Assembly (NCBI GenBank): GCA_040377305.1
Contig: JBEIPA010000011.1
Location: 117,495 to 181,494 of the forward strand
Source of the DNA: Flavobacteriales bacterium
Lineage (GTDB): Bacteria > Bacteroidota > Bacteroidia > Palsa-965
Length of the DNA stretch: 64,000 nucleotides
Direction of reading: 5' to 3'
In this document: positions 19,241-22,018 of the stretch, in pieces
Layout of the letters: every line of letters starts with the position of its first letter
How positions within the stretch are numbered: the stretch's first letter is position 1
Program-made: the position numbers and the translations under genes
The notes under the pieces: model-generated
Database searches by the model: none
What the model was told of the DNA's origin: nothing
What the model saw: only the letters and a program-made list of their open reading frames with translations

Positions 19241-19263
19241 CACTACAAATGTAGCCACGATGT

Positions 19264-19876
19264 GGCTGCTTAACCACGGCGTCACAGCGAGCACGGCTAA
19301 AAAATTTAGTTTTATCCGTTTTCAAACGTTTGTTACCGACTAATGCGAAAAACACGATTTACGTTTGCAGAATAACCTTTAAACCTTAATAATATGAAAG
19401 TCCAGAAACCAGAATTTATGAGAGAGAATCACGAAATCGGAGCAAACTTTACTGTTGACGAAGATTGGGACCATTTAACTACAAAAATCATGGATGCATG
19501 TTTCGCTGTGCATCGTGAAATGGGACCAGGTTTAAAAGAGGAGATTTACCAAGCCTGCCTTTTGAAAGAGTTTGAGTTGAGAGAAATCAAGTTCGAGTGT
19601 CAGGTAAGAGTTCCAATGCTTTACAAAGGACACGATTTGAAGAAGCATTTGATTCTCGATTTGCTTGTTGAGGATAGGATTATTCTTGAGCTGAAAGCAA
19701 CGGAGGAAATCACAGGATTGTTTCAAGCGCAACTGTTGAGTTACCTGAAGCTCACCAATCGTAAAATTGGTTACATCGTCAACTTCAATGTTTCAATGCT
19801 CAAGACGGGCATCAAGCGAATGAAGAACGGATACTAACAAAAGCCGTGCTCGCCGTGCCGCCGTGGTAAAGCCGCC
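19264..19876. mobile_element. GxxExxY gene bracketed by 35-bp imperfect terminal inverted repeats
   Basis: GGCTGCTTAACCACGGCGTCACAGCGAGCACGGCT (19264-19298) matches the reverse complement of 19842-19876 at 31/35 positions. Mobility is inferred. Confidence 0.65.
19394..19837 (+). CDS. GxxExxY protein (PD-(D/E)XK nuclease superfamily)
   Basis: VHREMGPGLKEEIY, DLLVED.IILELKA, AQLLSYLK and G..VNFN motifs. Confidence 0.93.
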   Translation: MKVQKPEFMRENHEIGANFTVDEDWDHLTTKIMDACFAVHREMGPGLKEEIYQACLLKEFELREIKFECQVRVPMLYKGHDLKKHLILDLLVEDRIILELKATEEITGLFQAQLLSYLKLTNRKIGYIVNFNVSMLKTGIKRMKNGY

Positions 19877-19958
19877 GGCATGGCCGGCACAGGTAACCAG
19901 AAGCCCCTAAACATTGCTGTTTAAGGGCCTCGGCGGAAACTACTACTAAGGGAAACTC

Positions 19959-20549
19959 TTACTTGGTGCCTTTCTGCCCTTCGTGTTCAGAAGCGTACCA
20001 GTCATTATATTCTTCGATCACCGACTGCATGTCTTTGATCTCGTATTTCTTGTCTTCAGACTCGATGCGTGCAACGAGTTCGCTGTTGTCGGCCATCATT
20101 TCAGAAACTGTTTTCTTAAAGTGATTGCCTTTTAACTTCTTCAGGCTCTTCGATTCGCCTTCTGTATTTTCAACATAGAAGTCTTTTTCAACTTCTGTCT
20201 GTTCGCCGTGGTAAACTTCAAATTGCCACTCGAAAAGATTGATCTTCCCTGCGGACACTAATTTAAGAAAAACCAGCTCCTTGTCCATAGAACGACTTAG
20301 AAATCTCACGCCTTCGTATGAGAATTCTTTCACGTCCTCCGGCTTGTAATTTTTCTGGACTCCTTCCGCATTTTTAAGAGTCACTTTCGTGAACAATGGG
20401 AGCTCCTTTTTCGTGTTGTATTTGATTTCGCCTTTCAGCGTATCGCCATTGGTCAGGATCACATAACCCTGTTTCCACACTAATTCAGCCTTTGCTGCTG
20501 TAAACGAACCCAGAACGAGTAGCAGGACGAGAGTAAGGTGTTTCTTCAT
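19959..20549 (-). CDS. Hypothetical exported protein
   Basis: Signal peptide and the GYVILTNGDTLKG motif common in Bacteroidota hypothetical proteins. Confidence 0.8.
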   Translation of the reverse strand: MKKHLTLVLLLVLGSFTAAKAELVWKQGYVILTNGDTLKGEIKYNTKKELPLFTKVTLKNAEGVQKNYKPEDVKEFSYEGVRFLSRSMDKELVFLKLVSAGKINLFEWQFEVYHGEQTEVEKDFYVENTEGESKSLKKLKGNHFKKTVSEMMADNSELVARIESEDKKYEIKDMQSVIEEYNDWYASEHEGQKGTK

Positions 20550-20649
20550 TGCAGCCCAAATTAAGGTCATAAAGGCCTGAATTCAAAGGTGATGTTAGGA
20601 ACTGTGTCGAAATGTTGAAAAGTGGGGGAATTGTGGATAACCCGGGGTT

Positions 20650-20682
20650 TAACCCTGCAAGAGTTTAACCCTTGCAGGGTTA
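20650..20682. repeat. REP-like palindrome AACCCTGCAAG...CTTGCAGGGTT
   Basis: TAACCCTGCAAG-AGTTTAACC-CTTGCAGGGTTA, overlapping the stop codon of the MBL gene. Confidence 0.85.
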
Positions 20683-21768
20683 GCCTTTCCACCATTCCCG
20701 AAACGCCTGTCCCGATTGCTTCAAAAACACCTTTTCACCAATCATCGGTGTCGCCATCTCAATATCACTGTTCTTGTTCGCTTCAGCCACACGATTCAAA
20801 GGCTCATCCCAGGGGTGATTGCCCAGCGCAAATTTTGCCGAATGAACAGGAATAAAGCGTGATGCATTCAATTCTTTCGCAACCTGCACTACTTCTTCTG
20901 GCAAAGTATGGATAAGCTGCCAGCTCATGTCGTACTGACCATTTTCCAGAATGGCAAGATCAAACGGACCAAATTTCTTACCGATATCTGCAAAATGTGT
21001 GTCATAACCACTGTCTCCACCGATGAAAATATTCATGGTTGGTGTTTTAAAAACGAATGACATCCACAAAGCGCGGTTGCGCACAAAACCTCTACCACTG
21101 AAATGTCGTGCTGGAGTCGCGTGCACAACAAATCCGTCGCCGAGATCTTCTGTCTCGTGCCAGTCTTTTTCAACGATGATTTCCGGATCATATCCCCATC
21201 GTTCGAAATGCGCACCTGTTCCAAGGCCGGTGATTATTTTACTAACTCGCGGTTTTATTTCGATCAGAGTTTTGTAATCGATGTGATCCCAATGATCGTG
21301 TGAGATAAAAAGATAGTCGATCTCCGGAATGTCGGATGCGCGGTAAGCACCTGTGCCTTTGAATTCACGCGTGGTAAATGCAAGAGGTGATGCTGCGCCA
21401 CTTAATACAGGATCAACCAATATTTTCTTCCCGTCAATTTGCATGAAGTACGAGGAATGACCGAACCACACGAGTACATCTTCGTTCAGTGGTAACGATT
21501 TCAGATCCGTTTTAACATGTGGAATTTCTTTGGCAGGAACGCGATGTGGTTTTGAAGAAAGGATTTCACGCATCACCGTGTAATAGTTTGCGCCATTCGT
21601 CAGATCAGGAGTTACGCTCAGGTTGTGAAACTTTCCATCGCGGAAGTGTGGCGATTCACGAATACGTTCAAGCCGTTTTCCTTTTGGCGCACTTCCGAAT
21701 TTCGGTTGTTGCATGAAGAGATAAACGATGAGGACGAAAAGTAGTATAACGGAAAGAGTAATGAGCAC
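20680..21768 (-). CDS. MBL-fold metallo-hydrolase (RomA/NAPE-PLD-like)
   Basis: WFGHSS, SHDHWDH, PARHFSGR, GDSGY and ENGQY motifs. Confidence 0.92.
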   Translation of the reverse strand: MLITLSVILLFVLIVYLFMQQPKFGSAPKGKRLERIRESPHFRDGKFHNLSVTPDLTNGANYYTVMREILSSKPHRVPAKEIPHVKTDLKSLPLNEDVLVWFGHSSYFMQIDGKKILVDPVLSGAASPLAFTTREFKGTGAYRASDIPEIDYLFISHDHWDHIDYKTLIEIKPRVSKIITGLGTGAHFERWGYDPEIIVEKDWHETEDLGDGFVVHATPARHFSGRGFVRNRALWMSFVFKTPTMNIFIGGDSGYDTHFADIGKKFGPFDLAILENGQYDMSWQLIHTLPEEVVQVAKELNASRFIPVHSAKFALGNHPWDEPLNRVAEANKNSDIEMATPMIGEKVFLKQSGQAFREWWKG

Positions 21769-21831
21769 GATGGTGTTTTTGGTGGCTTTAGTATAGTCGT
21801 GAATGAGGGTGAAATATTGTAGTCTTGGGCA

Positions 21832-22018
21832 TAACCCTGCAAGGGTTAATCCCTTGCAGGGTTATGCGCGCGCGCGAGTTACAACGATTTTTTCGCAATA
21901 GTCGGGAGTAAACGTTTGAAAACGGATGTGGTTGATGAATTAGGCACCCTCCAAGGGTTTAACCCTTGCAGCGTTAACCCTGCAGGATCCGCCGCGGCGG
22001 AAAACGCTTGCGGGGTTA
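21832..22018. repeat. Cluster of three further copies of the AACCCTGCAAG REP-like palindrome
   Basis: Copies at about 21832-21864, 21946-21975 and 21975-22018; the last carries CCGCCGCGGCGG in its loop. Confidence 0.8.

What the first reader, a model, noticed from the sequence alone, without database searches (positions are those of the whole stretch)
19252..19890. GxxExxY nuclease gene packaged between structured 35-bp inverted repeats at the polA promoter
Seen: the gene lies between arms matching at 31/35 (19264-19298 and 19842-19876). Each arm is built from tandem CACGGCG-like units and capped on the outside by a small hairpin (GCCAC-GAT-GTGGC on the left, GCCGGC-ATG-GCCGGC on the right). 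The left end abuts the polA -7 box (19246-19253). Established: GxxExxY proteins are PD-(D/E)XK-fold proteins of unknown function, not recognised transposases. Inference: a minimal selfish element whose nuclease acts on its own arms, analogous to RAYT/REPIN systems.
Basis: partly seen in the sequence, partly recalled or inferred. Interest (0 to 1): 0.7.

Follow-up and report, generated by a model that had tools for sequence, protein, structure and literature searches.

The report
Nuclease gene inside its own repeat
A small gene predicted to encode a DNA-cutting enzyme sits between two mirror-image copies of a short repeat that also occurs, without the gene, across this bacterium's genome; seven of its eight such genes have a dispersed repeat family of their own, so the enzymes likely recognise and maintain these repeats, a first testable role for a very large protein family of unknown function.

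Summary
Confirmed: arms 19264-19298 and 19842-19876 match at 31/35, carry hairpin caps and enclose a GxxExxY (TIGR04256/PF13366) gene next to the polA -7 box. The arm belongs to a dispersed family (37 copies, 12 gene-less doublets). All 8 GxxExxY paralogues of this genome are bracketed by their own arm type. The layout holds in 44 of 57 genus loci and 52 of 80 loci from other genomes (10 phyla); arm type tracks the protein, and genomes without the gene lack this arm family. But the unit does not behave as a jumping element: copies are 29-46% identical, 6 of 8 keep their site in the nearest relative, the gene is under purifying selection, and gene-less doublets share no core. Best reading: a vertically kept nuclease-repeat partnership that works like RAYT/REPIN or Ssn/NTS with a PD-(D/E)XK enzyme; binding and cutting are untested. 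The polA position is a general repeat hot spot. The scan found this layout before on other DNA (27 findings). Added here: eight coexisting pairs, site-by-site turnover, and a genus-specific promoter palindrome shared with DNA-repair genes. Not found in the papers searched.

The parts
19246..19253 (-). polA -7 promoter box TACATTTG (host; the left boundary of the element)
   Evidence: sequence; consensus TAnnTTTG recalled; similar boxes at this place in relatives
19253..19267 (.). left outer cap: 6-bp stem, 3-nt loop (GAT)
   Evidence: caps in 20 of 36 arms of this family against 1 of 36 on the inner side
19264..19298 (+). left arm (family core 19273-19296, three CAC(G/A)GC units)
19314..19341 (.). 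28-bp imperfect palindrome centred on AAACGTTT; candidate regulator site, 27 nt before the gene's -7 box
   Evidence: regulator not identified
19360..19367 (+). predicted -7 box TACGTTTG of the GxxExxY gene
   Evidence: consensus recalled
19394..19837 (+). GxxExxY gene, 147 aa, PD-(D/E)XK fold; E49, D89, E99, K101, Q113, Y117 intact
19842..19876 (-). right arm (family core 19844-19867)
19874..19888 (.). right outer cap: 6-bp stem, 3-nt loop (ATG)
19903..19928 (-). host hairpin in the 3' region of the convergent gene 19959-20570 (right boundary; present in relatives with and without the element)

Best explanation
The GxxExxY gene and its two arms form a vertically inherited nuclease-repeat pair, in which the predicted PD-(D/E)XK nuclease likely recognises its own arm sequence and likely nicks it, and so would seed and maintain the gene-less copies of that arm elsewhere in the genome, as RAYT does for REPINs. 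Shown: gene enclosed by arms; a private arm type for each of eight paralogues; gene-less singlets and doublets; arm-protein co-variation; stable sites; purifying selection; intact catalytic motif. Inferred: the 8-11-nt units are protein-binding sites; cutting happens on single-stranded or hairpin DNA (outer triloop caps, likeness to Ssn and TnpA); host repair or recombination then copies arms into intergenic gaps; the gene itself moves or is replaced only rarely. In this genus expression is possibly tied to DNA damage through the shared promoter palindrome (weak inference).
For: 8 of 8 paralogues have inward-facing arms, and each scores best with its own downstream flank. Family sizes 37, 30, 31, 15, 83, 44, 2, 110, with 0 in 5 Mb of simulated sequence. 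Controls: 25 of 1291 ORFs of 100-220 aa reach an IR score of 16. Genus: 25 of 36 own-flank scores reach 30 against 29 of 1260 swapped pairs, plus 19 of 21 further loci. Other genomes: 52 of 80 against 546 of 6320 swapped pairs. Shared arms rise with protein identity, from 1.4% of 435 pairs under 35% to 64% of 99 pairs over 75%; 0 of 500 permutations reach the correlation; tree clades carry matching arm types. The 5 genus genomes with no GxxExxY match hold 0-3 copies of this arm pattern; all 14 with 10 or more copies hold 2 or more genes (rho 0.70). 6 of 8 paralogues keep their site in G015. 20 synonymous against 2 amino-acid changes between G014 and G010; 34 of 40 listed differences in a relative's contig fall on third positions. 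E49, D89, E99, K101, Q113, Y117 are kept in at least 97% of 116 proteins. Precedents: RAYT/REPIN (10.1101/2021.07.10.451892), TIRtrons (PMC3733652), Ssn (PMC11893778).
Against: No binding or cleavage data. 13 of 57 genus loci and 28 of 80 other loci miss the score threshold. The direct-orientation control is also raised (22 of 80). The 80 loci are the best of 597 for one subfamily, and kin are not independent, so the correlations overstate. Eight genomes with GxxExxY matches have only 0-5 copies of this arm pattern (other arm types were not counted there). G015 keeps 39 matches to the arm pattern although its polA-site gene has other arms. The same gaps take repeats of other systems, and Y1 transposases and four-helix-bundle genes in this genome have the same layout, so another enzyme could do the copying. 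A PD-(D/E)XK nuclease has no known strand-joining step (recalled). Caps are common in only 2 of 7 families tested, and only 5 of 18 triloops of this family read C(GNA)G on either strand. Fold matches are weak (no E under 0.001; best Z 7.6) and do not name a substrate.
Confidence: 0.6

Rival explanations
1. Host nuclease with arms as binding sites only: the protein binds its arms (self-regulation, or marking of intergenic DNA) and has a cellular job, perhaps in DNA repair, while another enzyme such as a Y1 transposase or recombination spreads the repeats.
For: 6 of 8 paralogues lie next to polA, recJ, ssb, dinB, radA or a PA0069 radical SAM gene (a repair role for the last is recalled). Three share a promoter palindrome with recJ, xseA, ssb, UvrD- and PIF1-like helicases. 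Purifying selection and stable sites. Y1 transposase genes are present.
Against: The repair neighbourhood is local: 7 of 25 other genus loci, four of them one recJ site, and 4-5 of 80 loci elsewhere. The palindrome is in 15 of 25 genus genomes and 0 of 16 others. The gene is missing from 5 of 27 genus genomes. The Y1 genes have different flanking repeats.
Confidence: 0.16
2. Autonomous selfish element: arm-gene-arm excises or copies itself as a unit, and the gene-less doublets are its non-autonomous derivatives.
For: Patchy presence at the polA site (4 of 23 genus loci). The polA-site proteins of G000 and G015 are 50% identical with different arms, against 65-82% at the other five shared sites, which would fit replacement. 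Different sites in different species.
Against: No near-identical copies (29-46%). Spacers of the 12 gene-less doublets match neither each other nor the element's interior. The AU test does not reject one clade for the four polA-site proteins (p 0.256). 5 of 72,556 plasmids and 0 of 50,697 phage records carry a relative (both collections may be poor in hosts of this family). A relative's contig with 147 differences in 1189 nt keeps the element in place.
Confidence: 0.1
3. RNA-level system: arms pair in transcripts to form long stems that enclose the gene or spacer, and processing of that RNA (by RNase III or by the GxxExxY protein) is the selected function.
For: The two arms pair as RNA around the gene (z -5.8 on 20 shuffles). 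167 of 203 neighbours are on the gene's own strand, so many elements would be read through.
Against: At this locus the gene has its own predicted promoter inside the left arm, so its transcript would hold only the right arm. Arms of one doublet are no more alike than arms of different loci (3.2 against 3.5 mismatches in 27). It does not explain private arm sequences for each paralogue or how arms spread.
Confidence: 0.08
4. No functional link: GxxExxY genes simply sit in intergenic hot spots where repeats accumulate.
For: Hot spots exist: the same gaps hold different repeat families in each relative.
Against: Each paralogue has its own arm type on both sides in inward orientation; arm type follows the protein across genomes and phyla; 1 of 1301 control ORFs against 23 of 116 GxxExxY loci show the unit array on both sides (pattern chosen after seeing the arms).
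Confidence: 0.04

Closest known systems
RAYT/REPIN (REPtron) systems: REP-associated tyrosine transposase TnpA-REP with REP doublets (10.1101/2021.07.10.451892; PMC6006769; passages read)
   Same: One stationary, vertically inherited gene per repeat family, flanked by that repeat; gene-less doublets in intergenic gaps; several gene-repeat pairs in one genome; few repeats where the gene is missing.
   Different: The enzyme is a PD-(D/E)XK nuclease, not an HUH/Y1 transposase; arms are arrays of 8-11-nt units, not GTAG-footed palindromes; doublet spacers are unrelated to each other.
TIRtrons / TIRYT (PMC3733652; passages read)
   Same: Gene bracketed by one pair of terminal inverted repeats whose family occurs elsewhere as singlets, dimers and clusters.
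   Different: TIRYTs are tyrosine transposases; the arms here show no GGGGWSAS motif (by eye).
Ssn (GIY-YIG cd10448) with NTS/SRM repeats (PMC11893778; abstract, part 1 of 4 of Results, section 10 and Discussion read)
   Same: Small single-domain nuclease, not a transposase, flanked by the repeats it is tied to; each homologue has its own repeat variant; repeats dispersed in the genome.
   Different: Different fold (GIY-YIG); SRMs are 20-50-nt single hairpins; ssDNA cleavage is shown for Ssn and untested here.
TIGR04256 GxxExxY / PF13366 PDDEXK_3
   Same: The protein is a full member.
   Different: Listed with function 'Unknown' in PMC3424549 (passage); no repeat association found in the papers searched.
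Insertion sequences and MITEs
   Same: Gene between terminal inverted repeats, with shorter gene-less relatives.
   Different: No near-identical copies, no shared core in gene-less copies, no transposase family match, sites kept between species.

Membership tests
TIGR04256 GxxExxY / PF13366 | score above the curated cut-off | tested here: met
   135.1 bits against 35; 133.1 against 22
PD-(D/E)XK nucleases | fold and D...E-x-K catalytic residues | tested here: met
   model pLDDT 85.8; best matches are PD-(D/E)XK proteins but weak; D89, E99, K101 kept in 99-100% of 116
PD-(D/E)XK nucleases | nuclease activity | not testable with these tools
   needs protein
RAYT/REPIN | HUH/Y1 transposase gene | tested here: not met
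   only TIGR04256 and PF13366 match
RAYT/REPIN | gene flanked by its cognate repeat, one gene per repeat family | tested here: met
RAYT/REPIN | gene-less inverted doublets dispersed between genes | tested here: met
   12 doublets with 36-190-nt spacers
RAYT/REPIN | gene stationary and vertically inherited | tested here: met
   6 of 8 at the same site in G015; patchy deeper in the genus
RAYT/REPIN | repeat population small where the gene is missing | tested here: met
   0-3 copies in 5 genomes without a match; rho 0.70 over 27 kin genomes, one arm pattern only
RAYT/REPIN | GTAG foot next to a palindromic REP | tested here: not met
   GTAG in 2 of 36 outer flanks, counted by eye
RAYT/REPIN | enzyme cleaves and rejoins the repeat | not testable with these tools
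   needs protein
Ssn/SRM | GIY-YIG cd10448 protein | tested here: not met
Ssn/SRM | gene flanked on both sides by a genome-wide repeat | tested here: met
Ssn/SRM | site-specific ssDNA cleavage | not testable with these tools
   needs protein
IS / MITE | several near-identical copies of the full element | tested here: not met
   paralogues 29-46% identical to the window's protein
IS / MITE | gene-less copies share a core derived from the full element | tested here: not met
   spacer scores at background
IS / MITE | target-site duplication | tested here: inconclusive
   none seen by eye; no close empty allele was available
Bacteroidetes LexA regulon (for the promoter palindrome) | GGA-N5-TCC or CTAA-N5-TTAG box | tested here: not met
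   motifs from PMC8565304 (passages) differ from the palindrome at 19314-19341

The most novel reading that the evidence does not exclude
GxxExxY proteins are a family of thousands of tiny sequence-specific nicking nucleases, each matched to a modular array of 8-11-nt units, that propagate their own non-coding repeats without any transposase; one genome runs eight orthogonal pairs at once, and in this genus they are switched on together with DNA-repair genes by an undescribed regulator. This would be a third, mechanistically separate route to REP-like repeats and a large library of small programmable-specificity nucleases.
Probability: 0.3. Interest if true: 0.85.

Novelty: new variant of a known kind. 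Interest (0 to 1): 0.66.

Why it matters
GxxExxY is a very large family (17,103 clusters at 50% identity with E up to 1e-10) listed as of unknown function. A cognate repeat beside most genes gives each protein a predicted substrate, so the function becomes directly testable; this genome alone offers an 8 x 8 specificity matrix. It would also explain a common class of intergenic repeats in Bacteroidota and other phyla, and extend the nuclease-repeat partnerships known from RAYT (HUH) and Ssn (GIY-YIG) to a third fold.

Tried and rejected
Repair-gene neighbourhood as a family-wide rule: rejected; 6 of 8 in this genome but 4-5 of 80 loci elsewhere (150 of 155 neighbours scanned, cut to 300 aa, E up to 1e-20). 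Specific targeting of polA: rejected. MITE-type origin of the doublets: rejected. Independent insertions at the polA site: not shown; AU p 0.256 and 0.271. C(GNA)G DNA mini-hairpin signal in the caps: only 5 of 18 triloops. The WYL regulator as binder of the promoter palindrome: its upstream region holds a different palindrome. No Rfam match; the sigma-70 scan is uninformative for this lineage. Sequencing runs: no RNA holder listed. Joints that skip the gene have sides of only 25-33 nt and fit gene-less doublets elsewhere, so they are no evidence of excision. A search of related loci with the eight-paralogue alignment gave no usable pattern, so a closer subfamily was used. No complex prediction was obtained, so the dimer question is open. 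Literature searches with no description of the association: (GxxExxY: 3 papers hold it, 2 listed; one passage read). Subscription papers and supplements were not searched.

Full report
OBSERVATION. The arms are real: 19264-19298 and 19842-19876 match at 31 of 35, and 0 of 2000 flank shuffles reach that score. The enclosed ORF 19394-19837 is a GxxExxY / PDDEXK_3 protein. Its model (pLDDT 85.8) resembles PD-(D/E)XK nucleases such as lambda exonuclease, Cas4 and BpuSI, though weakly (no E under 0.001; best Z 7.6). E49, D89, E99, K101, Q113 and Y117 are kept in at least 97% of 116 relatives; Q-x3-Y as a RecB-type motif is recalled.

THE ARM IS A DISPERSED REPEAT. A 24-nt pattern finds 37 copies in the 5.18-Mb genome and none in 5 Mb of simulated sequence. 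They form 13 inward-facing doublets: 12 without a gene (spacers 36-190 nt) and this one (547 nt); the rest are singlets or tandem copies. The 12 spacers match neither each other nor the interior of the element, and the two arms of a doublet are no more alike than arms of different loci. So the repeated unit is the arm, and the doublets are not deletion products of the gene-bearing copy. An outer cap hairpin 4-7 nt from the arm occurs in 20 of 36 arms with varying sequence (1 of 36 on the inner side, 6% in shuffles); it is common in one other family (22 of 44) and rare in five. Whether it is part of the arm or a preferred target is open.

EIGHT GENES, EIGHT ARM TYPES. The genome has 8 GxxExxY genes, the other seven 29-46% identical to this one. 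All are bracketed by inverted arms of a different sequence, each scoring best with its own downstream flank. The arm families hold 37, 30, 31, 15, 83, 44, 2 and 110 copies (part of that listing was cut, the totals were seen). Of 1291 control ORFs, 25 reach an IR score of 16. Genome-wide, 32 ORFs are enclosed by IRs: 6 GxxExxY genes and, of 13 others scanned, 7 four-helix-bundle genes, 4 Y1/RAYT-like transposases, 1 ORF6N and 1 MarR-like gene. The layout is thus shared by several small gene families, each with other repeats.

GENERALITY. I examined 57 of the 117 genus matches: 25 of 36 reach an own-flank score of 30 against 29 of 1260 swapped pairs, and 19 of 21 more do. Of 80 loci from other genomes (the best of 597 for one subfamily), 52 do, in 10 named phyla, against 546 of 6320 swapped pairs; the direct-orientation control is 22 of 80. 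A few record labels may be binning errors. Sharing of arms rises with protein identity from 1.4% to 64% of pairs, and tree clades carry matching arms. The five genus genomes with no gene match hold 0-3 copies of the arm pattern, and all 14 genomes with 10 or more copies hold at least two genes. Kin are not independent, so these figures overstate.

HISTORY OF THE SITE. Upstream of polA a GxxExxY gene is present in 4 of 23 genus loci (G000, G015, G014, G010) and 0 of 7 from other families; G013 and G007 have gene-less doublets of other arm types, G004-G006 are empty, and others have different repeats. The element fills the short gap between the -7 box and a conserved host hairpin. The sites of four gene-less doublets behave alike: in relatives they hold other repeat families, nested doublets or nothing. 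So the polA gap is one of many hot spots. Six of the eight paralogues sit at the same site in G015; five pairs are 65-82% identical with cross-flank scores of 30-62, while the polA pair is 50% identical with different arms (score 18). That fits either replacement or fast joint change of protein and arm; an AU test does not reject one clade for the four polA-site proteins (p 0.256). The gene is under purifying selection: 20 synonymous and 2 amino-acid changes between G014 and G010, and 34 of the 40 listed differences (of 67) in a relative's contig are at third positions. Relatives were found in 5 of 72,556 plasmids and 0 of 50,697 phage records.

A LOCAL LINK TO DNA REPAIR. Six of eight paralogues adjoin polA, recJ, ssb, dinB, radA or a PA0069 radical SAM gene. 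In 25 other genus loci 7 have such neighbours, four at one recJ site (the ComM label of one Mg-chelatase-like gene is recalled). Elsewhere only 4-5 of 80 do, so this is no family rule. A palindrome centred on AAACGTTT (19314-19341) lies inside the element, 27 nt before a -7 box. It has 76 matches against 5 simulated; the spacing enrichment is modest (31 sites at 26-28 nt against 10 simulated). At that spacing it precedes three GxxExxY genes, recJ, xseA, ssb, UvrD- and PIF1-like helicases, a YraN-type gene, three Y1 transposases, two four-helix-bundle genes, ORF6N, DUF559 and an integrase. It is found in 15 of 25 genus genomes and 0 of 16 others and is not either Bacteroidetes LexA box of PMC8565304. 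Its binder is unknown, and it may partly be a repeat itself.

MECHANISM. Most likely (0.6) a domesticated nuclease-repeat pair: the protein reads its arm, nicks it, probably when single-stranded or extruded, and host repair spreads or refreshes arms in neutral gaps, while the gene moves rarely. Everything after 'reads' is inferred from likeness to RAYT and Ssn. Natural two-domain forms are common among the best hits; in the six I read, one domain looks intact and the other mostly degenerate (by eye), a hint of a dimer that cuts one strand. Rivals: binding-only host nuclease (0.16), autonomous selfish unit (0.10), RNA-level system (0.08), chance residence (0.04).

COMPARISON AND NOVELTY. It works like RAYT/REPIN, TIRtrons and Ssn/NTS, but is a member of none, since the enzyme is neither HUH nor GIY-YIG. 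PMC3424549 lists PDDEXK_3 as unknown. Searches found no description of the association; subscription papers and supplements were not covered. Papers seen: PMC11893778 (abstract, part 1 of 4 of Results, section 10, Discussion); passages of PMC3424549, PMC6006769, PMC3733652, PMC8565304, 10.1101/2021.07.10.451892 and 10.1101/2021.01.26.428298; PMC12085832 as a listing only. The scan's own notes hold 27 findings on the same layout in other genomes (8 shown); they are unchecked notes, and my reading was set down before I saw them. Verdict: real, a new variant of a known kind, interest 0.66.

Noticed in passing
window 19314-19341; G000 genome-wide: Genus-specific palindrome centred on AAACGTTT, 26-28 nt before -7 boxes of repair genes and of several repeat-associated small genes, and also near mutS, comEC and DUF2851; candidate undescribed DNA-damage or competence regulon.
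   Followed up: partly
L042-L048: Seven four-helix-bundle (TIGR02436) genes are each enclosed by inverted arrays of short tandem units; similar arrays without a gene fill the polA gap and other gaps in relatives.
   Followed up: partly
L038-L041, L049, L169, L170: Y1/RAYT-like transposase genes and ORF6N genes show the same gene-between-inverted-repeats layout or share the promoter palindrome.
   Followed up: partly
window 19895-19960 and L002-L030: A hairpin followed by a nearly invariant stretch (19929-19960) is conserved across the genus in the 3' region of gene 19959-20570; no Rfam match. Possible structured RNA.
   Followed up: no
L213 (G013) and L217 (G015): One doublet nested inside another of a different arm type, and a remnant of this arm family beside a replacing repeat: repeats insert into repeats.
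   Followed up: no
P0001-P0008: Tandem two-domain GxxExxY proteins of 250-295 aa, apparently with one intact and one degenerate active site.
   Followed up: partly
L087, L137, L146: GxxExxY elements lie right after the homocysteine methyltransferase part of a split methionine synthase, in two cases directly before the pterin-binding part.
   Followed up: no
L176:987-1008: The genome's single WYL regulator has its own upstream palindrome of the CGCA-N7-TGCG type.
   Followed up: no
window 19666-20682 region right of the element: 20680-21768 flanked at about 20650 and 21830-21860: An MBL-fold gene is enclosed by another inverted repeat family, of the type that flanks a RAYT-like gene (L041).
   Followed up: no
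window 3812 and 46395: Single arms of two other GxxExxY-associated families lie inside the window.
   Followed up: no
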